Shown here in pieces: positions 13,771 through 38,816 of a DNA stretch of 40,116 nt; positions within the stretch are counted from its first letter, which is position 1, and each line of letters starts with the position of its first letter. A model generated the notes under the pieces. The model did no database searches. It was not told the origin of the DNA and worked only from the letters and a program-made list of their open reading frames with translations. The stretch lies in the UHGV virus genome UHGV-1361477, one strand, 5' to 3'. This stretch comes from a virus. The position numbers were made by a program, and so were the translations under genes.

Positions 13771-13943
13771 GACGACAGCGACGAAGTATCACCGACATCA
13801 TCTGCGAAAACTGCAAATACCTTCCAACGAAACGCTCCAGAAATAAACGCAAGCCAATCCCAAAAGAATCTGACGTAAAAACCTTCAACTACACGGCTCA
13901 CCTGTGGGATATCCGGTGGCTAAGACATCGTGCGAGGAAATGA
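13767..13943 (+). CDS. ninE: NinE
   Basis: 58 aa [20 protein letters not shown]... matches lambda NinE by recall; ATGA coupling. Confidence 0.7.
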
Positions 13944-30048: not shown

Positions 30049-31521
30049 TTGGCTACATGGCAACAGGCTGGTAATTCAGGCGCGCTTCTTGCCGGGTTAG
30101 GCGGCATGAACTCCAACGCTCCAAGAGCAAGTGATGCAGACGCCACGCTTGCATACATTCGACAGAATAACGAGATGGAGCGTTCAGGACGTAATAACGT
30201 TGGCTTGCAGGCTTTGCAGGGCATTTCATCTGTCATGGATATGTATAAGCAGATGGATCAGCAGAAGCGACAGCAAGAGTTTCAGCAGGCTTATGCTGAT
30301 GCATATACATCTGGTGACCGCGATGCAATGCGAAAACTGGCATCACAGTATCCTGAGCAGTTTGACGCTGTAAGAAACGGCATGAAATTTGTCGATGAAG
30401 ACCAGCGTTCCACTGTCGGCACACTGGCAGCAAGTGCCAGACTGGCAGCTTCATCTCCAGAAGCCATGATGTCATGGTTGCAGAACAACTCATCTGAGCT
30501 TACTCGTGCCGGAGTAGACCCTCTGGATGTGGCGAAAATGTATCAGCAAAATCCACAAGGTTTCACAGAGTTTGTTGATCACCTTGGAATGGCTGCTCTT
30601 GGTCCGATTGATTACTTCAATGTTCAGGACAAGATGGCTGGTCGTGAAATTGACCGAGGAAGGCTGGCAGAGACAATCCGCAGCAATCAGGCTGGAGAGG
30701 CGCTTCAGGCGAGAGGGCAGGATATTAGCCGAGCAAATGCGTTAACGTCAGCATATGCACCAACAGCTGCAATGCAGAATTATAATCAGTACGCGCAAAT
30801 GTTAAAGGCGGATCCCGATGGTGCAGCGGCATTTGCGGCAGCGGCGGGAATTAATCCCAATGCTAAGAAATTACTTAAGGTTGAAACCAATCCTGATGGC
30901 TCGGTAACTAAGTATTACACCGATGGCAGCGAGGAAGCCGGAAAACTAAACCAACCTATATCTGGTGATGGCATTAAACCAATTAGCTTGCCACAAGCGC
31001 AAAGCATCATAGATAAGGCTAATGAGGGTTCCAAGAAGGCGGCAGGATTTGCTTTGCGATTAAAAGATTCAATGGACTCAATGAATCAGCTTAGTAAAAG
31101 CATTGACCCTAAGCGAGTTGCATTAATAAATCGCTCTCTTGGTGATGGGACTATTGCAAATTTAAGCCTATCACCAGCGGAGCAGCAATATATGGTAAAT
31201 GCGAGAGACGCCTTGTATGCAATTTTGCGCCCAGAAACAGGTGCAGCAATTACTCTGCCAGAGATGCAGGAGTATTCCAAAATGTACCTGCCTCAGCCCG
31301 GTGATTCCAAGGCTGCTACTGAAACAAAAATGCGAAAAATGCAGGGCCAATATAACTCATTACGTGGTCAGTCTGGTCGCGTTTATGATGCTTTGGTGGT
31401 TTCAAGTGCTGCAAATAGTCAACAACAGAGCAATAGCCAACAACCGGCAAATACCCAACAGCAGCAGAGTCAATCCGGATCATATACCTCAAAATCAGGC
31501 ATTCAATTTACGGTGGAATGA
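30049..31521 (+). CDS. ejection protein, gp20-like
   Basis: 490 aa; TTG start after GGAGGTG; size and position as P22 gp20. Confidence 0.55.
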
Positions 31522-33365
31522 TGAAAGTAACTGCAAACGGTAAGACATTTACCTTCCCTGATGGTACGAGCACGGAAGATATTGGCACCGCCATTGATGA
31601 GTATTTTGCTGGTCAGGCTGTTCAGCAACAAACAGTTAATCAGGCCAATAATGAACCAGCACGTGAAGAACCATCATTGATGCAACAAGCTGGCGATTGG
31701 CTCACAGGTGCTCAAAGTGCAGGGCAAATTGCAGAACAGGCTGGTCGTGGTCTGGTAAACATACCATTTGACGTATTGCAGGGTGGCGCAAGTCTGATTA
31801 ATGCAATCAGCCAGGGGCTTGGTGGCCCCAAGGTTTTGGATGATGTTTATCGCCCTGTCGATCGACCGACAGACCCTTATGCGCAAGCTGGAGAAACAAT
31901 TGGCGGGTATTTAGTTCCAGGAGTTGGAACGGCAGGAAGCATGGCTATTGGATCACTGGCAGAAGCCGCAAACCAGAAAGGTGATTTCGCGCAAAATGCA
32001 GCCATAAATGCCGGAGTTAACCTTGCCGCTCAGGGTGTTCTTTCCGCAGCAGCAAAGGGAATAGGGCGTGGAATAACGGCTATAAAAGGCGATATCGCGC
32101 CAGAAGTAGCGAAAAAAATTGCCACCTCAGAATCAATGGGTGTGACGCCAATGACATCTGATGTCATCCCACCGAAAAATGCTTTCACTCGTGGCCTTAC
32201 TCAGGATGCCGAGGGGGCTTTGCTCGGGACAGGCTCAAAGCGAGCTGAGCAATATGCAACGCGTAGTAAGCTGGTAAGTAATTATTTTGACCGTTTTGGT
32301 GAGTACAACCCTGATGATGTGGTGAAATCTCTGACCACCACGTTAAGGGGGCGGAAGGATGCCGCTGGCGCTGTTATCAATGACGTCACCAATAAAATGG
32401 GTAATGCCTCAGTTGATACCACAAATACCATGAATGCTCTGAATACAGCGATCGCAAGACAGGAACGGCTTGGGACATCTGCCAATCAAAGCCTGCTTAC
32501 ATCCTTGCGTAACCTACGTGAAGAATTAGCAAACCCTGCAACTGATTTGGATGTTACGTTTGATCTCTTGCGTCAGCACAGAACAGCATTTAGATCTAAT
32601 GTTCAGGGAGATGCTATGGTCTTCCCCAACCAGGCAAAAGCAGCTACCAATATGGTAGAGAATGCAATGTCAAAAGACCTTCGTAACGCAGTTGCTAAAA
32701 ACCTCGGTGCATCAGACGCAGCAAAATACCTTAAAGCAAATTCCGATTATGCAAACGTTTATAATAAGGTGCTTAATAAAAACATTGCTAACAAGCTCAA
32801 CAAGGCAAGCAGTGAAGCCAGTCCTGAACTTATAAATACCGTTGTATTAAGCAGAAAACCATCTGACGTGAAACGAATCTGGAGCGCATTGGATGATAAA
32901 GGGAAAGATGCTATGCGTGCAGCTTACGTCAGCAAAATAGCGGAAAAATCCGGTGACTCTCCAGCCAAGTTCATCACTGAAGTTAATAAGCTGAAATCTC
33001 AGTCAGGCGGTGAAATTTACAACACTATTTTTTCTGGAAAGCACATGAAAGAGCTTGATGCTCTTCATGAAGTTCTACAGCAAACAGCAAGGTCAGACAC
33101 CGCAAATGTAGTAACTCAGACGGGGCAATCGCAAGCCAACAGGATAAGGACGATTGGCGCAACTGCGACTCTTGGCGTATCAATGGGGCTTGAGGCTGGT
33201 TTCGGTGCAATGATGCGCTTGTATGAGTCCAAAGCAGCAAGGAATGCTCTCTTACGTTTGGCAAACACCAAAGCAGGAACGCCAGCCTATGAAAGAGCGC
33301 TAAATAATGCTGCAAATGCGATACGCCCTATACTTTCAAGCCAAATTACAGCAGAACAGCAATAA
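31518..33365 (+). CDS. ejection protein, gp16-like
   Basis: 615 aa; size and position as P22 gp16. Confidence 0.6.
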
Positions 33366-33379
33366 AAGATAAGATATAA

Positions 33380-33865
33380 CTACCTGATATTACTGCTACT
33401 GTTGCATGTTACCGTGTTTCCAAATCCTGAATTGCAGTTTGTATATGTGTCAACGCGTGTTGGGTAAGGTTGAGTTATAACAGGCTGGCGCGCTTTTTGC
33501 TCGATCGCTTGCATTGTGTTTACAGCCTGATAATTCAATAAAGCCTGCTGGAATGCTTGGCTTTGCGCTATTTGTTGGGCTTGTTCTTGGCTTTGTAATT
33601 GAACATAAAGATTCTGAAGTTCAAGTCTTGCCTGTGTGTCACTTATCTTGCCTTCATCGACACCTTGCCCGAGCATCTTCGCAGCAAGGACATACAGCTT
33701 AGGTGTTGGTGCTGATGCCATGCGAGAGTCGTTCTTCAAGCTGGCATCAAGGCAATTAGCCATATCGCTAAGCTTTGGATAGCGTTGCTCGCAACTTGCC
33801 TGATAGTCGCTTACTTTTGCGCACCCAGCCAGCAGAAGCGGGATAATTAACAGTGATTTTTTCAT
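33380..33865 (-). CDS. lipoprotein (signal peptide + lipobox LLAGC), candidate superinfection-exclusion moron
   Basis: 161 aa from ATG 33865 with AAGGAGAG SD; MKKSLLIIPLLLAGC; Q-rich coiled coil; at P22 sieA position. Confidence 0.7.
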   Translation of the reverse strand: MKKSLLIIPLLLAGCAKVSDYQASCEQRYPKLSDMANCLDASLKNDSRMASAPTPKLYVLAAKMLGQGVDEGKISDTQARLELQNLYVQLQSQEQAQQIAQSQAFQQALLNYQAVNTMQAIEQKARQPVITQPYPTRVDTYTNCNSGFGNTVTCNSSSNIR

Positions 33866-33899
33866 ATAATTAACTCTCCTTAGTTTTGCGCAGGATACC

Positions 33900-34265
33900 A
33901 TGAAAAAAGTTAACATTGGAAACGTACCAAAGATGCTAGTACCGCTCTTTGAGAGCGGTACAATTGTGTTTTGTAGAGACTTTCCAGAATGGCAACGCCT
34001 GCATCAAAAACTTGGCGTTGACGTGCATGACTCGGACGCCAACGGAGCGTCTCATACAATGAGTAGCGAGAATGGTGTTTTGCATGTGATAGGCGTGTTC
34101 AATGGCAAACTATCTACTATTGCCCATGAGTGCGCTCACATGGCATTCGATATCTGCTCAAGGGTCGGTGTTGATGTTGAACCAGGAAGAGCCAACGAGA
34201 CTTACTGCTACTTAATGAGCAGGCTTGTTGAGTTCTGCGAGCGACATATCAAAAAGCCGGAGTGA
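33900..34265 (+). CDS. hypothetical protein with HEXXH motif (putative small zinc-metallopeptidase-like)
   Basis: 121 aa filling the gap between neighbours exactly; HECAH motif with acidic residues about 20 aa downstream. Confidence 0.5.
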   Translation: MKKVNIGNVPKMLVPLFESGTIVFCRDFPEWQRLHQKLGVDVHDSDANGASHTMSSENGVLHVIGVFNGKLSTIAHECAHMAFDICSRVGVDVEPGRANETYCYLMSRLVEFCERHIKKPE

Positions 34266-34272
34266 TCCGGCT
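34252..34272. terminator. bidirectional terminator hairpin between convergent genes
   Basis: AGCCGGA-gtga-TCCGGCT; on minus strand followed by TTTTTG. Confidence 0.5.
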
Positions 34273-34278
34273 TGATTA

Positions 34279-34458
34279 TTACTTTTTGCTGTCTGGAGTT
34301 CGCTTATCTAATACCCAGCCATGACCTGGCTTTGTTGTTGGTGGAAGCCTTTCGTTGTCCTTGACGGTGGCAAAATTGTCTTTCTTACCGCCGCGCGGGC
34401 CAACTTCTTGGTATATTCCGCCGTTTTTTCCTGTGTTTTCACCTGGTTTTTTCGCCAT
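34279..34458 (-). CDS. YjzC-like small protein
   Basis: 59 aa from ATG 34458 with GAGG SD; GIYQEVGPRGG...LPPTTKPGHGW pattern recalled as YjzC-like family. Confidence 0.45.
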   Translation of the reverse strand: MAKKPGENTGKNGGIYQEVGPRGGKKDNFATVKDNERLPPTTKPGHGWVLDKRTPDSKK

Positions 34459-34548
34459 GATATACCTCAACATACACCCGTTATTGGGCGATTAAATATT
34501 GATCTCATTTTATAAGTAGTCAATATGGCCCAGGTAAATGCAAAAATT

Positions 34549-34572
34549 AACCCACCGTCAGGTGGGTTTTTT
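34549..34572. terminator. hairpin with T-runs on both sides overlapping mnt stop
   Basis: ACCCACC-gtca-GGTGGGT followed by TTTTTTG on plus strand. Confidence 0.45.
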
Positions 34573-34809
34573 GTACAAATCCTTCAGCGTATCAAACACC
34601 ATCTTCTTAACAAGTTCGGACTGCTCATCAGCGATGCGTTCCGCATCGTCTCGATAGCCTGAAATTTTGGATGGCTTTGATACAGCATCAGTAACTATCT
34701 GAACTAATTCTGAATTAAGAGAGCGGCCATTGGATTTGGCTCGCTGTTTTAGTTTTTCCTTTAATTCGTAAGGTAGCCGCAGATTAAATTGCGGGTCATC
34801 TCTTCCCAT
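34558..34809 (-). CDS. mnt: Mnt repressor (ribbon-helix-helix, Arc/Mnt family)
   Basis: 83 aa MGRDDPQFNLRLPYELKEKLKQRAKSNGRSLNSEL...KKMVFDTLKDLYKKPT matches P22 Mnt by recall. Confidence 0.85.
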   Translation of the reverse strand: MGRDDPQFNLRLPYELKEKLKQRAKSNGRSLNSELVQIVTDAVSKPSKISGYRDDAERIADEQSELVKKMVFDTLKDLYKKPT

Positions 34810-34872
34810 TCTTGATGCCTCGCTTTTGTGAGTGGATCGGCATCTTATTATCTGCTGGTTGCATCCTCAATA

Positions 34873-34887
34873 AGACCACAGTGGTCT
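34873..34887. promoter_or_regulatory. Mnt operator-like palindrome
   Basis: Perfect palindrome AGACCACAGTGGTCT; compare P22 Omnt AGGTCCACGGTGGACCT (recalled). Confidence 0.6.
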
Positions 34888-34955
34888 CTTTGTTTGATTA
34901 ATAATGCATCACTGTGGCAATGCTGCGGCGATTCCTTGTATCTGGAGCAAATTAA

Positions 34956-36392
34956 ATGACAGACATTACAGCCAATGTTGTAGTCAGCATGCCTTCGCAA
35001 CTCTTCACTATGGCTCGTTCTTTTAAAGCCGTAGCTAATGGAAAGATTTATATCGGTAAAATTGACACTGACCCAGTAAATCCTGAAAACCAGATTCAGG
35101 TTTATGTAGAGAACGAAGACGGCTCTCATGTTCCCGTTTCGCAACCAATCATCATTAACGCCGCTGGTTACCCTGTATATAACGGACAGATTGCCAAATT
35201 CGTAACTGAGCAAGGCCATTCTATGGCTGTTTATGATGCGTATGGTGCACAGCAGTTCAAATTCCCAAATGTGCTGAAGTATGACCCGGATCAGTTAAGA
35301 GTAGTTTTGACTGGACAGTCTGGTGATGGACTTAAGAATTTTTATGCTGGCTCAGGATGGACTGGTTCAGATGCAGCTGGTGACAATATTTATAACAATG
35401 AAACTATCATATATAAAAATGCTACACGACAGAGATTCTCCATACCAGAAACACCAATTCCAGATCCCATTATTTGGCTGGAAAAAATTAGTTCTGCAAC
35501 TAGGGATGACGGCATCAAACGATGGGATCAGGGGGTAATTTATAACTCTTTGCGCAAGGTGTCAGGAAGTGCATATACATGCACAACTACAAGTGTTGCT
35601 AAGCATGAGGGAGGGAATGGGCATTCAATTGGTCACCACATGCGTGGAGAATCAAGAAATCCGCAAGCCGAAACATGGGGGGGGTGGTCATATGGTGCAG
35701 TATTAGGAGATGCAGTGCAGAATGGAGCGATTAGCACTATTGCACATGAATTTAATCTGAATAATCGAGGTCCCGATAAAGGATGGATGGAGAATGCACT
35801 GCAAGGATCTGTAAGAGGGTTGGTATGTGTAACTCAGGATAAAAGCAATCCAGTAACACAGATGATTACCATCGGAAGAGGGAGTGAAGCTCCAAATGGT
35901 TATATCTGGACAGGAATGTTGTTTAGAGGTAATTCTATTTCCACTCCAACAGAGGAACTAACCGAGGTAGGTAATGGCGAATACATCAGACTTGAGGGAT
36001 CTCTATCATCTGGAGCTGCAAACGGCATTAGATTTAGAACAAATTATTTTAGGAGTGGAATTTCATTTTCTGAAGCTAGATTTTCAAACAACTGCGCAAT
36101 TTTGATGGGCGACAATCAACGAATTACGGTAGGAACGGGCCCGGCAAATACAACACATTTGAGTTTCAACAGGGCTGAGAACTGGGCTAACTTCAACAAC
36201 TTAAGAATACGACTTAATGGCAATCAAGTTATTTCAGAGAGGAGGACGGGATGGGGATCGCCAACCGGCACCGTATCCCGAGCAGCATTTAACTCTGGAA
36301 CAATAACTCACGAAGATTTAGCAAAGGTAGTTGCAGCATTAATTCAGGACTTACATGCTTCAACCGGGCATGGATTAATTGGTTTAACTTAA
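34956..36392 (+). CDS. tailspike / receptor-binding protein with P22-like N-terminal head-binding domain
   Basis: 478 aa; first about 115 aa ([17 protein letters not shown]...LKYDPDQL) match P22 gp9 N-terminus; remainder unrelated and shorter than known tailspikes. Confidence 0.8.
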
Positions 36393-37637: not shown

Positions 37638-38816
37638 ATGGCTATAAGCGACACAAAACTGCGTACTATTTATGGTAAACCATATTCGGGCCCACAAGAA
37701 GTGGCTGATGCCGATGGCCTCAGCGTACGAATTTCACCGAAGGGGGTCATCCAGTTCCAGTACCGCTATCGCTGGCATGGCAAGCCTAATCGACTTGGGC
37801 TTGGTCGATACCCATCCCTGTCTTTGAAGGATGCCAGACAGATCACTGCTGACTTGCGAAAGCTCTATTTCTCAGGAACGGATCCACGCACCTATTTTGA
37901 AGAGAAGGTGGAGAACTCCATGACGGTCGCCCAGTGTCTCGACTACTGGTTCGACAACTACGTCTCTACAACTCTCAGAGAAAAGACCCAGGCACTTTAC
38001 CGATCAACGGTTATGAAGCGCATGCATGACGCCTTTCCTAATCGTCCGGCATCTTCTATCACGGTTAAGCAATGGGTTGACCTGCTTACCGAAGAAGAAA
38101 GAGATAATCCACGCCGAGCAAGGCAGGTGCTAAGTCAACTAAGATCAGCAATAAGTTGGTGCATGCGGCGTCAGTTGATAGATAGTTGCGCAATTATGAG
38201 CATCCAACCAAGGGACTTCGGCTCCCGCGCTGAGGTAGGGGATCGGGTACTGTCGTATCACGAACTGGCTAAGATTTGGCTTGCTATTGAAAGAAGCCGT
38301 GCGTCTACGTCAAATAAGCTCCTTCATCAGATGCTTATGCTGTGGGGGGCGAGGCTCTCAGAGCTTAGGCTGGCAACAAAGACAGAATTTGACCTGCTGG
38401 ACAACGTATGGACCGTACCGAAAGAGCATAGCAAGATGGGTAATGTTATCCGCCGTCCAATCTTCGAACAAATTAAGCCTTTTCTCGAAAAAGCCATGAC
38501 AACGTACAATGATGTTCTTTTCCCTGGAGAAGACATAAACAAACCGATCAGCATCGCTGCAGCCAACCGATTCGTAAATAGAATAAGGGGAGGGATGGAT
38601 CTGGGTTACTGGCGAACACATGATTTCAGAAGAACGCTTGTTACACGTCTGTCCGAGATGAATGTCGAGCCTCATGTTACTGAGCGAATGCTCGGTCATG
38701 AACTTGGCGGGATAATGTCAGTATACAATAAACACGACTGGATAGAGGCTCAGCGCAAAGCGTATGAGCTTCACGCTGATAAATTGTTCTGGCACATCAG
38801 GAGCATTTCTGATTAA
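37638..38816 (+). CDS. int: tyrosine integrase (phage integrase family, P4-like arm-binding N-terminus)
   Basis: 392 aa; catalytic signature HDFRRT...LGH...VYNKHD; N-terminal arm-binding domain. Confidence 0.9.
   Translation: MAISDTKLRTIYGKPYSGPQEVADADGLSVRISPKGVIQFQYRYRWHGKPNRLGLGRYPSLSLKDARQITADLRKLYFSGTDPRTYFEEKVENSMTVAQCLDYWFDNYVSTTLREKTQALYRSTVMKRMHDAFPNRPASSITVKQWVDLLTEEERDNPRRARQVLSQLRSAISWCMRRQLIDSCAIMSIQPRDFGSRAEVGDRVLSYHELAKIWLAIERSRASTSNKLLHQMLMLWGARLSELRLATKTEFDLLDNVWTVPKEHSKMGNVIRRPIFEQIKPFLEKAMTTYNDVLFPGEDINKPISIAAANRFVNRIRGGMDLGYWRTHDFRRTLVTRLSEMNVEPHVTERMLGHELGGIMSVYNKHDWIEAQRKAYELHADKLFWHIRSISD

What the first reader, a model, noticed from the sequence alone, without database searches (positions are those of the whole stretch)
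33380..34955. Remodelled immI/sieA-position locus: Mnt repressor and operator retained, arc/ant absent, replaced by lipoprotein + HEXXH protein + YjzC-like gene
In P22 the interval between the ejection gene 16 and the tailspike carries sieA and the immI module (mnt, arc, ant). Here a P22-type Mnt (34558-34809) and a perfect Mnt-operator-like palindrome AGACCACAGTGGTCT (34873-34887) are present, but no Arc or Ant ORF exists; the operator sits about 70 bp upstream of the tailspike start. In their place are a lipoprotein (33380-33865), a 121-aa protein with an HECAH zincin-like motif (33900-34265), and a YjzC-like small protein (34279-34458), separated by hairpin terminators. This could be an uncharacterised exclusion or antirepressor-type module; the HEXXH protein next to a repressor is reminiscent of ImmA/ImmR logic, but that is speculation.
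Basis: partly seen in the sequence, partly recalled or inferred. Interest (0 to 1): 0.7.

Follow-up and report, generated by a model that had tools for sequence, protein, structure and literature searches.

The report
Mosaic P22-type "ant moron" without antirepressor
This is an ordinary, already-described kind of variable gene cluster that P22-like phages carry just before their tailspike gene: a reshuffled set of known cassettes in which the antirepressor has been lost but its repressor Mnt and the matching DNA site are kept.

Summary
The "replacement" reading is wrong. P22 itself encodes the same 121-aa HEXXH protein (hkcC, 1 aa different) and the 59-aa ORF59a between sieA and mnt. Only sieA is replaced, by a lipoprotein gene sitting under the unchanged P22 sieA promoter and ribosome-binding site. 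The 16-9 interval is the published "ant moron", and mnt-only versions are described for L, ST64T, ST104, ST160 and SE1.

Three points go beyond the published descriptions I found:
- This Mnt belongs to a Gln6 class paired with AAGACCAC-N-GTGGTC. P22 has His6 with AGGTCCAC-N-GTGGACCT. In 80 protein-selected loci, Gln6 alleles always lack arc/ant and have degraded Pant hexamers. They are under purifying selection (pN/pS about 0.12).
- hkcC belongs to a large uncurated family of about 120-aa phage proteins whose only invariant residues are H-E-x-x-H and a Glu 20 residues later. That is a gluzincin-type signature, but similarity to solved zincin folds is weak.
- ImmA/ImmR logic is not supported.

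Verdict: a new combination of known cassettes, of modest interest.

The parts
31518..33365 (+). Gene 16 homologue (ejection/DNA-transfer protein); left boundary of the variable interval
   Evidence: 615-aa ORF. The C-terminal 200 aa are 76-78% identical to P22 and ST160 gp16. RefSeq annotates it 'DNA transfer protein' in the 100% identical stretch of E. coli EF5-18-41.
33380..33865 (-). 161-aa lipoprotein in the sieA slot, function unknown. Signal peptide with lipobox LLAG|C and Ala at +2, so outer-membrane sorting is expected.
   Evidence: ORF. PHROG 6067 'unknown' at 2.9e-109. 90 homologues across Enterobacterales, all hypothetical. Cys15 and three further Cys are invariant. It holds the same position directly after gp16, on the opposite strand, in Gally, Serratia and Yersinia P22-like prophages. 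No similarity to P22 SieA. The AF2 model is only moderately confident (pLDDT 65; helical residues 18-100 at about 80).
33900..33930 (-). Homologue of the P22 sieA promoter, which overlaps the first 31 nt of hkcC; it now points into the lipoprotein gene
   Evidence: P22 record BK000583 annotates the sieA promoter at 13861-13891. These 31 nt are identical in the window. P22 homology continues through the TAAGGAG ribosome-binding site and stops at the lipoprotein ATG.
33900..34265 (+). hkcC: 121-aa HExxH...E zincin-like protein (H76, E77, H80, E100), on the same strand as the late operon
   Evidence: 99% identical to HK620 hkcC and to the unannotated P22 ORF. PHROG 1365 at 1.7e-39. 514 clusters found in the 1.84-billion-protein library. 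The only invariant columns in 58 diverse members are H76, E77, H80 and E100. AF2 pLDDT 89, with HECAH in helix 71-88 and E100 at the start of helix 100-116.
34254..34273 (.). Bidirectional intrinsic terminator shared by the convergent hkcC and orf59a genes
   Evidence: Found on both strands by the terminator scan; -14 kcal/mol. Annotated as bidirectional tORF59A in HK620 and as the 'mnt terminator' in P22. An equivalent hairpin lies between the two genes in the siphovirus copies of the pair (L128, L130, L131).
34279..34458 (-). orf59a: 59-aa Gly/Lys-rich YjzC-like protein, function unknown
   Evidence: 98% identical to P22 ORF59a. PHROG 3202 at 7.3e-31. Pfam YjzC 19.4 bits, below the 25-bit cut-off. 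Homologues are 66-80% identical across gamma- and alpha-proteobacteria.
34495..34523 (-). Sigma-70-like promoter for orf59a (TTGACT-17-AATATT)
   Evidence: It is the only promoter-like site found in 33300-35100. The same hexamers recur upstream of the orf59a homologues in L130 and L131.
34549..34568 (.). Hairpin terminator overlapping the end of mnt
   Evidence: Found on both strands; -14.3 kcal/mol. HK620 annotates the homologous hairpin as tMNT.
34558..34809 (-). mnt, Gln6 specificity class (MGRDDPQFNLRL...)
   Evidence: Pfam Arc plus Repressor_Mnt. PDB 1mnt at 2.8e-34 and the tetramerisation domain 1qey at 3e-12. 76% identical to P22 Mnt, with His6 replaced by Gln. 19 alleles give a median pN/pS of 0.12.
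34842..34870 (-). Pmnt homologue (TTGAGG-17-TAAGAT)
   Evidence: Position-for-position homologous to the annotated P22 Pmnt, TTGAGA-17-TATCAT. Assigned by homology only; it is below the 9/12 threshold of the promoter scan.
34837..34865 (+). Degraded remnant of Pant (TCGGCA-17-TGCATC against P22 TTGACA-17-TATATT)
   Evidence: Alignment to the annotated P22 Pant. The -35 hexamer TCGGCA is shared with the other Gln6 alleles (ATGGCA in L034). All Gln6 alleles carry C instead of T at the last base of the -10 hexamer.
34873..34887 (.). Mnt operator of the Gln6 class; the 17-bp frame 34872-34888 reads AAGACCAC-A-GTGGTCTC
   Evidence: Perfect 15-bp palindrome at the position homologous to P22 Omnt. 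It is unique in the window. The core GACCAC-N-GTGGTC is nearly invariant in 26 distinct intergenic sequences while the centre base varies freely.
34956..36392 (+). Tailspike: P22 head-binding domain plus a 358-aa receptor-binding part; right boundary of the interval
   Evidence: Pfam Head_binding at 3.6e-65. The C-terminal part is 65% identical to a Kagunavirus LM02P1 protein.

Best explanation
The interval between ejection gene 16 and tailspike gene 9 is the 'ant moron' (immI/sieA region) of a P22-like (Lederbergvirus) prophage. It is built from independently exchangeable cassettes that are all known from relatives.

1. A lipoprotein ORF is swapped in for sieA under the unchanged P22 sieA promoter and ribosome-binding site. 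I infer that it is made in the lysogen, exported to the outer membrane, and most likely acts as an envelope-level superinfection-exclusion or lysogenic-conversion factor.

2. The convergent pair hkcC/orf59a, which P22 itself carries, shares a bidirectional terminator.
- hkcC is a small cytoplasmic HExxH...E (gluzincin-type) metal-site protein. It is read in the late-operon direction and has no promoter of its own that I could detect. I infer late expression and metallopeptidase activity; the substrate is unknown.
- orf59a has its own conserved sigma-70 promoter on the opposite strand.

3. An arc/ant-less mnt module.
- Mnt here belongs to a Gln6 specificity class whose cognate operator is AAGACCAC-N-GTGGTC.
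- The once-strong Pant that the operator overlapped has decayed.
- Pmnt, which the operator abuts, is retained.
- I infer that Mnt tetramers bind this one operator, autoregulate mnt and silence any residual rightward transcription into the tailspike gene in the lysogen.
- In trans they could repress ant of incoming phages with the same operator type.

Shown: the identities, homologies, positions, covariation and selection. Inferred: expression timing, DNA binding, catalysis and exclusion.
For: The region is a known kind.
- Villafane 2008 (PMC2629481) defines the ant moron and lists the P22 genes sieA, hkcC, 59a, mnt, arc and ant. It also describes mnt-only morons in ST64T, ST104 and Para1.
- Phage L is described the same way (PMC8022706).
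- ST160 and SE1 show hkcC-orf59a-mnt-gp9 without arc/ant, at 91% nucleotide identity.
- Gally and 720R6 show lipoprotein-...-mnt-gp9.
- P22 encodes the same hkcC and ORF59a.
- The exact gene set occurs in 13 of 5426 complete E. coli genomes and in 7 of 80 Mnt-selected viral contigs. Other combinations occur too: SieA with Gln6 Mnt, and the lipoprotein with a full P22-type immI.

The Mnt class.
- In 80 loci chosen by protein similarity, His6 Mnt goes with arc and/or ant and, wherever a CCAC-N-GTGG palindrome was found, with AGGTCCAC-N-GTGGACCT.
- In the same sample, Gln6 Mnt goes with AAGACCAC-N-GTGGTC and with gp9 directly downstream.
- Gln6 also holds in Mnt proteins only 58-72% identical to the window's that keep the same operator.
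- The L/ST64T Mnt is of this class.
- Median pN/pS is 0.12.
- The promoter and operator assignments rest on the curated P22 features.

The lipoprotein slot.
- The 31-nt sieA promoter and the ribosome-binding site are conserved up to the ATG.
- The lipoprotein occupies the same slot in Serratia and Yersinia prophages.

hkcC.
- H, E, H and E are the only invariant residues.
- The model is confident, with both motifs on consecutive helices.
- The only named matches among viral models are SprT-like, metalloprotease and IrrE proteins.
- Weak PDB sequence hits are all metalloproteases aligned at HExxH.
- The hkcC/orf59a pair is conserved in siphovirus prophages and in Proteus and Xenorhabdus.
Against: - Nothing here shows expression, DNA binding, metal binding or exclusion.
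- Full immI modules with the Gln6-type operator were seen only in three metagenomic viral contigs (L009, L061, L072) of unknown host. The closest sequenced phage is an Erwinia phage. A trans target in E. coli or Salmonella is therefore not demonstrated.
- Pant 'decay' is judged from hexamers alone. A weak promoter may remain.
- The lipoprotein model is of low confidence and has no informative homologue.
- orf59a homologues occur without hkcC, and outside phages, in other Proteobacteria. Pairing of the two genes may therefore be mere linkage.
Confidence: 0.75

Rival explanations
1. One reading: the locus is a new exclusion or antirepressor-type module. The HEXXH protein would work with the repressor in ImmA/ImmR fashion, as a protease that cleaves or controls Mnt, functionally replacing arc/ant.
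For: - An invariant HExxH...E site lies about 300 bp from a repressor gene.
- Weak structural matches to 'IrrE protein' models (E 0.03-0.05).
- 1 of 58 family members touches Pfam M78 at E 0.099.
Against: - hkcC has no M78 hit.
- P22 has the same hkcC together with a full arc/ant module, so hkcC does not replace them.
- hkcC and mnt are on opposite strands, separated by orf59a and two terminators.
- The hkcC/orf59a cassette occurs in siphovirus tail-gene clusters, with no Mnt homologue detected in those loci.
- Gln6 mnt modules frequently lack hkcC.
- ImmR-type substrates are HTH repressors, whereas Mnt is a ribbon-helix-helix protein (own knowledge).
Confidence: 0.04
2. The mnt gene and its operator are a functionless, decaying relic of a lost immI region.
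For: - The Pant hexamers are degraded and arc/ant are gone.
- HK620 shows a further-decayed stage with only remnants.
- The authors of the phage L genome raise this possibility (PMC8022706).
Against: - 19 distinct Gln6 alleles are intact, with median pN/pS 0.12 at pS 0.35.
- The DNA-contact strand and the operator core are conserved together, even between Mnt proteins only 60% identical.
- The centre base of the operator varies freely while both half-sites do not.
- Pmnt-like hexamers are retained.
Confidence: 0.1
3. The Gln6 Mnt-operator pair is chiefly a dedicated switch for the tailspike gene. It blocks a residual ex-Pant promoter, or modulates late read-through, about 70 bp upstream of gene 9, so that no tailspike is made in the lysogen.
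For: - In all the arc/ant-less loci the operator lies 55-80 bp upstream of the gene 9 start codon or a 6-codon stub of it. Several relatives carry about 350 bp more before the full gene.
- The window has no terminator between the operator and gene 9.
- Villafane 2008 notes that the P22 moron and its repressors may affect tailspike level.
- P22 Pant transcripts can reach gene 9 (Berget, Poteete and Sauer 1983; own knowledge, not checked here).
Against: - The promoter remnant scores only 4/6 and 3/6 and lacks the key -11 A and -7 T in the window.
- Antiterminated late transcription is not expected to be stopped by a bound repressor (inference).
Confidence: 0.2
4. hkcC and orf59a form one two-gene functional system, for example a protease with a partner, substrate or inhibitor, or a defence or counter-defence pair. 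On this view they are not two merely linked genes.
For: The convergent pair, with its shared terminator, is kept at 60-63% and 76-81% identity respectively. It occurs in P22-like podoviruses, in siphovirus prophages of Klebsiella and Rosenbergiella, and in Proteus and Xenorhabdus genomes.
Against: - orf59a homologues at 66-80% identity occur without hkcC in Pseudomonas, Vibrio, Psychrobacter and Rhodobacterales, some in non-phage contexts.
- hkcC-family genes occur at other genome positions in L, ST64T and epsilon34, away from the 16-9 interval where P22-type phages carry orf59a; whether an orf59a lies beside them there was not checked.
- No PADLOC hit.
Confidence: 0.15

Closest known systems
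P22 immI / 'ant moron' (sieA-hkcC-orf59a-mnt-arc-sar-ant between genes 16 and 9)
   Same: - Same position between genes 16 and 9.
- Same hkcC and orf59a (1 aa different each), same sieA promoter, same terminators.
- Homologous mnt, Pmnt and operator position.
   Different: - arc, sar and ant are absent.
- Pant has decayed.
- Mnt is 76% identical, with His6 replaced by Gln and operator half-sites changed symmetrically at positions 2/16 and 4/14.
- The sieA ORF is replaced by an unrelated lipoprotein.
mnt-only ant morons of Salmonella phages ST160/SE1 and L/ST64T/ST104
   Same: - Gln6 Mnt with the AAGACCAC-N-GTGGTCTT operator directly upstream of gene 9, and no arc/ant.
- ST160 and SE1 also have hkcC and orf59a (PMC2629481; PMC8022706).
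   Different: - They have no lipoprotein.
- The L/ST64T Mnt is only 70% identical.
- The window has an extra roughly 11 bp after the operator.
E. coli phages Gally (OV696608) and vB_EcoP-720R6
   Same: - Same lipoprotein at the sieA slot.
- Gally has an identical Mnt, and its mnt-gene 9 intergenic region is identical over the stretch aligned, operator included. 720R6 matches the same stretch at 96.6% nucleotide identity.
   Different: In Gally, hkcC/orf59a are replaced by an unrelated 139-aa ORF.
HK620 hkcB-hkcC-(hkcD) region
   Same: hkcC is 99% identical; orf59a (HkcD) and the bidirectional terminator are also shared.
   Different: mnt and ant survive only as remnants. HK620 has hkcB instead of the lipoprotein.
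Minimal gluzincins and SprT-like zincin metallopeptidases
   Same: - HExxH on one helix and a Glu 20 residues on at the start of the next helix.
- A small beta-sheet plus a backing helix in front.
- The named structural neighbours among viral models are SprT-like or metalloprotease proteins.
   Different: - hkcC reaches no curated family threshold.
- Matches to solved zincins are weak.
- No activity is known.
P22 SieA and other prophage exclusion proteins, including lipoproteins such as TP-J34 Ltp (cited in PMC10883804)
   Same: The lipoprotein uses SieA's promoter and slot next to the ejection-protein genes that SieA targets.
   Different: - No sequence similarity to SieA.
[quoted passage not shown]
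- No exclusion data exist.

Membership tests
Mnt repressor (Arc/MetJ ribbon-helix-helix with C-terminal tetramerisation domain) | N-terminal Arc-like RHH domain | tested here: met
   Pfam PF03869 at 2.8e-22, residues 3-50. PDB 1mnt at 2.8e-34.
Mnt repressor (Arc/MetJ ribbon-helix-helix with C-terminal tetramerisation domain) | C-terminal Mnt tetramerisation domain | tested here: met
   Pfam PF11423 at 2.2e-18, residues 53-80. PDB 1qey at 3e-12.
Mnt repressor (Arc/MetJ ribbon-helix-helix with C-terminal tetramerisation domain) | A roughly 17-bp symmetric operator in the mnt upstream region, overlapping the divergent promoters | tested here: met
   The palindrome 34873-34887 aligns with the annotated P22 Omnt. 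It covaries with residue 6 of Mnt.
Mnt repressor (Arc/MetJ ribbon-helix-helix with C-terminal tetramerisation domain) | Specific binding of the protein to the operator | not testable with these tools
   Needs EMSA, footprinting or a reporter assay.
Complete immI immunity region (mnt-arc-sar-ant) | arc gene | tested here: not met
   No Arc ORF between mnt and gene 9. Arc is likewise missing from identical relatives such as L055.
Complete immI immunity region (mnt-arc-sar-ant) | ant antirepressor gene | tested here: not met
   Only 146 bp separate mnt from gene 9. No Ant hit in loci of this type.
Complete immI immunity region (mnt-arc-sar-ant) | Strong Pant promoter overlapped by Omnt | tested here: not met
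   TCGGCA-17-TGCATC against P22 TTGACA-17-TATATT. Not found by the promoter scan. Actual promoter activity is untested.
Zincin / gluzincin metallopeptidase (for hkcC) | HExxH motif conserved across the family | tested here: met
   H76, E77 and H80 are invariant in 19 close and 58 distant members.
Zincin / gluzincin metallopeptidase (for hkcC) | Third metal ligand Glu on the helix after the active-site helix | tested here: met
   E100 is invariant, 20 residues after H80, at the start of predicted helix 100-116. The spacing matches thermolysin H146/E166 (own knowledge). There is a weak phmmer alignment to thermolysin and neutral protease over this stretch (E 0.09).
Zincin / gluzincin metallopeptidase (for hkcC) | Zincin fold similar to solved members | tested here: inconclusive
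- By Foldseek against PDB, the best E is 0.12.
- In BFVD, named neighbours include SprT-like and metalloprotease proteins.
Zincin / gluzincin metallopeptidase (for hkcC) | Zinc binding and peptidase activity | not testable with these tools
   Needs biochemistry.
ImmA/IrrE (Peptidase M78) anti-repressor proteases | Match to the M78 domain | tested here: not met
   No Pfam hit for hkcC. 1 of 58 relatives hits at E 0.099.
ImmA/IrrE (Peptidase M78) anti-repressor proteases | Adjacent to and co-inherited with its cognate repressor | tested here: not met
   hkcC and mnt are on opposite strands, with an intervening gene and two terminators. The two genes occur independently of each other.
Bacterial lipoprotein | Signal peptide ending in a lipobox with an invariant Cys | tested here: met
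   MKKSLLIIPLLLAG|C, with C15 invariant and G14 nearly invariant in 27 homologues. No dedicated signal-peptide predictor was available.
SieA superinfection-exclusion protein | Sequence similarity to SieA | tested here: not met
   BLASTP finds no alignment at E <= 100.
YjzC family (PF14168), for orf59a | Score above the Pfam gathering threshold | tested here: not met
   19.4 bits against a cut-off of 25. There is a supporting weak tblastn hit to an annotated 'YjzC family protein' of Clostridium phage phiCT9441A (43% identity, E 4e-4).

The most novel reading that the evidence does not exclude
Two of the cassettes could hide undescribed biology.

(a) The lipoprotein that has taken over sieA's promoter could be a new outer-membrane or periplasmic superinfection-exclusion factor. 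It would act against the ejection-protein conduit of P22-like phages.

(b) hkcC could be the founding, easily testable member (it is a P22 gene) of a large new family of roughly 120-aa minimal gluzincin peptidases that many phages express late.

In addition, the Gln6 Mnt/AAGACCAC pair may be a naturally evolved second operator specificity. It could be kept as an orphan 'anti-antirepressor' immunity factor.
Probability: 0.3. Interest if true: 0.55.

Novelty: new member of a known kind. Interest (0 to 1): 0.3.

Why it matters
Mainly as a correction. The locus should be annotated as a standard P22-type ant moron, not as a new immunity system.

Three modest leads follow from the analysis:
- A natural Mnt specificity switch, His6 to Gln with symmetric operator changes. 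It fits the classical Mnt/Arc specificity genetics and would explain why mnt-only phages such as L do not control P22 ant.
- hkcC is an unstudied gene of the model phage P22. It carries an invariant metalloprotease-type site and has hundreds of relatives in phages.
- A conserved lipoprotein is expressed from sieA's promoter next to the ejection genes. It is a cheap candidate for exclusion assays.

Tried and rejected
- ImmA/ImmR logic was rejected on the Pfam result and on gene distribution.
- Defence-system membership: none of the four proteins hits PADLOC.
- NCBIfam has nothing for the lipoprotein, hkcC or orf59a.
- A profile search of hkcC against PDB sequences gave no hit with the close-homologue profile. 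The broad profile gave only sub-threshold astacin and myroilysin hits.
- Foldseek against AFDB50 was unavailable.
- Foldseek against PDB was uninformative.
- The lipoprotein has no PDB sequence relative.
- I looked for known phages that combine a Gln6-type operator with arc/ant. UPF_BP1 is P22-type. N7 and Midgardsormr38 have unrelated operators. Only the metagenomic contigs L009, L061 and L072 qualify.
- Literature searches for hkcC, YjzC and Mnt His6 returned nothing useful on function.
- The operator as an intrinsic terminator was rejected. The stem is weak (-8.6 kcal/mol) and the T-run is absent from the ST160-type alleles.


Full report
**1. Observation**

- a 161-aa protein at 33380-33865 (-), beginning MKKSLLIIPLLLAG|C;
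- a 121-aa protein at 33900-34265 (+), with HECAH at residues 76-80;
- a 59-aa protein at 34279-34458 (-);
- an 83-aa Mnt at 34558-34809 (-);
- the tailspike, from 34956 (+).

Mnt is a clear family member. Pfam gives Arc at 2.8e-22 and Repressor_Mnt at 2.2e-18. PDB 1mnt matches at 2.8e-34, and the tetramerisation domain 1qey at 3e-12.

The palindrome AGACCACAGTGGTCT (34873-34887) is perfect. It is unique in the window even when two mismatches are allowed, against 0.10 expected by chance. It ends 68 bp before the tailspike ATG.

Two strong hairpins followed by T-runs separate the genes, at 34254-34273 and 34549-34568. Each is about -14 kcal/mol.

No arc or ant ORF is present. Only 146 bp lie between mnt and gene 9.

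**2. What the region is**

Megablast against phage records finds the right two thirds of the region at 91% identity in Salmonella phages ST160, SE1 and relatives. There the order is hkcC, orf59a, mnt, gp9, without arc or ant. The outer parts are found at 96% in E. coli phages Gally and vB_EcoP-720R6, where the order is lipoprotein..., mnt, gp9. The hkcC-orf59a segment is found at 97% in P22 itself and at 96% in HK620.

Translating P22 shows that it encodes the same 121-aa protein and the same ORF59a between sieA and mnt, each with one substitution. These two genes therefore do not stand in for arc/ant.

The literature already names this interval the "ant moron". It lists the P22 genes as sieA, hkcC, 59a, mnt, arc and ant, and stresses rapid flux, with ten types in sixteen genomes. 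It describes morons in ST64T, ST104 and Para1 that hold only mnt plus one unknown gene (PMC2629481). Phage L is described as lacking sieA, arc and ant but keeping a diverged mnt that "could have acquired another function or be a remnant" (PMC8022706).

The 33300-35100 stretch is 100% identical to a prophage in E. coli EF5-18-41. At least 80% of it is present in 13 of 5426 complete E. coli genomes. No isolated phage record covers 80% or more of it. The window is thus a new combination of known cassettes.

**3. The mnt module**

Aligning the mnt-gene 9 spacer with P22 places the palindrome exactly where the annotated P22 Mnt operator lies (curated features of BK000583).

| Element | P22 | Window |
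|---|---|---|
| Operator (17-bp frame) | AGGTCCAC-G-GTGGACCT | AAGACCAC-A-GTGGTCTC |
| Pant | TTGACA-17-TATATT | TCGGCA-17-TGCATC |
| Pmnt (opposite strand) | TTGAGA-17-TATCAT | TTGAGG-17-TAAGAT |

ST160 has a perfect 17-mer, AAGACCAC-C-GTGGTCTT. The operator changes are symmetric, at positions 2/16 and 4/14.

The window Mnt is 76% identical to P22 Mnt. It differs in the N-terminal DNA-contact strand, DPQFNLR against DPHFNFR, which is His6 to Gln in the literature numbering. That His6 governs Mnt specificity is my recollection of Youderian et al. 1983 and Knight and Sauer 1989; I did not check it here.

I tested the association in two ways.
- **Pattern scan.** A scan of viral contigs for the palindrome gave 49 loci with an adjacent Mnt. 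All of them have Gln at position 6, including proteins only 58-72% identical to the window's.
- **Unbiased sample.** 80 loci were picked by Mnt protein similarity.

| Mnt class in the 80 loci | Operator, where a CCAC-N-GTGG palindrome was found | What follows |
|---|---|---|
| His6 | AGGTCCAC-N-GTGGACCT | arc and/or ant present |
| Gln6 | AAGACCAC-N-GTGGTC | gp9 directly, no arc/ant |

The L/ST64T/SPN9CC Mnt is a Gln6 allele.

In all Gln6 modules the Pant hexamers are degraded. The final T of the -10 is always C. Pmnt is kept.

The 19 distinct Gln6 alleles give a median pN/pS of 0.12 at pS 0.35. The operator half-sites are almost invariant while the centre base varies freely. This argues against a dead relic.

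Full immI modules with the Gln6-type operator and a consensus Pant do exist, in L009, L061 and L072. They are metagenomic, and their nearest sequenced relative is an Erwinia phage.

My reading is inference. Mnt tetramers bind the single operator, autoregulate mnt, and keep any residual rightward transcription into gene 9 off in the lysogen. They may also repress ant of incoming phages of the same operator class.

**4. hkcC, the HEXXH protein**

No curated family matches it in Pfam, NCBIfam or PADLOC. PHROG 1365 is "unknown".

Close homologues at 43-78% identity keep H76, E77, C78 and H80 invariant. N99-E100-T101 is kept in all but one frameshifted member.

A profile search of 1.84 billion representatives found 514 clusters, nearly all 100-140 aa long. 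In an alignment of 58 members at 23-43% identity, the only invariant columns are H76, E77, H80 and E100. This is the HExxH-plus-Glu spacing of gluzincins.

AlphaFold gives a confident model (pLDDT 89, pTM 0.83). The layout is strands, helix 28-37, a beta-hairpin, helix 71-88 carrying HECAH, and helix 100-116 starting at E100. This is a zincin-like arrangement.

Similarity to solved structures is weak.
- Foldseek against PDB is not significant.
- Against viral models there are 26 hits at E <= 1e-3, nearly all uncharacterised. Those with informative names are SprT-like (2) and metalloprotease (1), with weaker IrrE matches.
- Sub-threshold sequence hits are all metalloproteases aligned at the motif.

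I conclude that hkcC has a metalloprotease-type metal site and belongs to a large uncurated phage family. Fold membership is likely but not proven, and the substrate is unknown.

hkcC is on the late-operon strand, and I could detect no promoter of its own. Paralogous genes lie elsewhere in the genomes of L, ST64T and epsilon34. I infer late expression.

**5. orf59a and the pair**

orf59a has a TTGACT-17-AATATT promoter, the only promoter-like hit in the region. It shares the bidirectional terminator with hkcC.

The convergent pair recurs in siphovirus prophages of Klebsiella oxytoca and Rosenbergiella and in a metagenome, in each case upstream of the tape-measure gene in the tail-gene cluster. 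It also recurs in Proteus and Xenorhabdus genomes. In L130 and L131 the orf59a promoter hexamers are conserved.

However, orf59a homologues at 66-80% identity occur without hkcC in Pseudomonas, Vibrio, Psychrobacter and Rhodobacterales, partly outside phages. Functional coupling therefore remains open.

The YjzC assignment is below the Pfam threshold.

**6. The lipoprotein**

It has 90 homologues in Enterobacterales, none named. The lipobox Cys is invariant, and there is no similarity to SieA.

The annotated 31-nt P22 sieA promoter, which lies inside the first codons of hkcC, is identical in the window. P22 homology runs on through the ribosome-binding site and stops at the lipoprotein ATG. 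This is a clean ORF swap under sieA's expression signals.

The same gene sits directly after gp16 in P22-like prophages of Serratia and Yersinia ruckeri.

[quoted passage not shown] By position the lipoprotein is a plausible envelope exclusion factor, but this is inference only. Its model is weak.

**7. Verdict**

The "remodelled, replaced" interpretation is half wrong, and the ImmA/ImmR idea is not supported. The arrangement is a member of a published, highly mosaic class.

Three leads remain: the Gln6 Mnt/operator specificity class, the hkcC metal-site family, and the lipoprotein in the sieA slot. These are annotation-level novelties worth simple experiments.

Interest is 0.3.

Noticed in passing
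window 34279-34458 (-); loci L218-L229: The 59-aa ORF59a protein is unusually conserved, at 66-80% identity. Hosts include Proteus, Xenorhabdus, Psychrobacter, Pseudomonas, Vibrio, Ruegeria, Phaeovulum and a Hyphomicrobiaceae MAG. Contexts range from an integrase/M78 island to ordinary metabolic genes.
   Followed up: partly
L128-L132 (around 5000-5560 in L128, L130 and L131); L218, L220: The convergent hkcC/orf59a pair behaves as a mobile two-gene cassette. It is inserted upstream of the tape-measure gene in the tail-gene cluster of siphovirus prophages, and it is also present in Proteus and Xenorhabdus.
   Followed up: partly
window 33939-33961 (+): A 10-bp perfect hairpin (-17 kcal/mol) followed by a T-rich run lies inside hkcC, at about codons 14-21. 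It looks like a terminator for rightward transcripts, and its stem is longer than in P22.
   Followed up: no
window 34956-36392 (+): The tailspike is short, at 478 aa. It has a P22 head-binding domain plus a 358-aa part that is 65% identical to a Kagunavirus LM02P1 protein and 28% identical to Vi1-like tail spikes. RefSeq flags both this gene and gene 20 as partial pseudogenes in E. coli EF5-18-41, although the ORFs are open in the window.
   Followed up: partly
L101, L149, L160, L161, L163 (relatives): In several relatives the gene 9 start survives as a 6-codon stub (ATGACAGATATTATAAATAG). About 350 bp of AT-rich inserted DNA follows before the real tailspike gene.
   Followed up: no
same 16-9 interval in Salmonella prophage BTP1 (literature): BTP1 makes an abundant antisense RNA of more than 700 nt, STnc6030. 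It spans the gene 16 3' end and the tailspike 5' end and confers immunity to BTP1 (PMC7067206). Leftward transcripts from the sieA promoter, the orf59a promoter and Pmnt in this window could have similar antisense effects.
   Followed up: no
window 37638-38816 (+): A phage integrase (Arm-DNA-bind_3 plus Phage_integrase) lies here. The window therefore spans the right end of a P22-like genome or prophage. The gene layout after about 36.4 kb does not match the orientation seen in EF5-18-41, so the window may come from another strain.
   Followed up: no
phage records ST160, UAB_Phi20, Phi75, ST-32: These phages carry two hkcC-family matches per genome. L, ST64T, ST104 and epsilon34 carry only a 38-40% identical paralogue (orf129 / gp70) at another genome position. 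The window has a single copy.
   Followed up: partly
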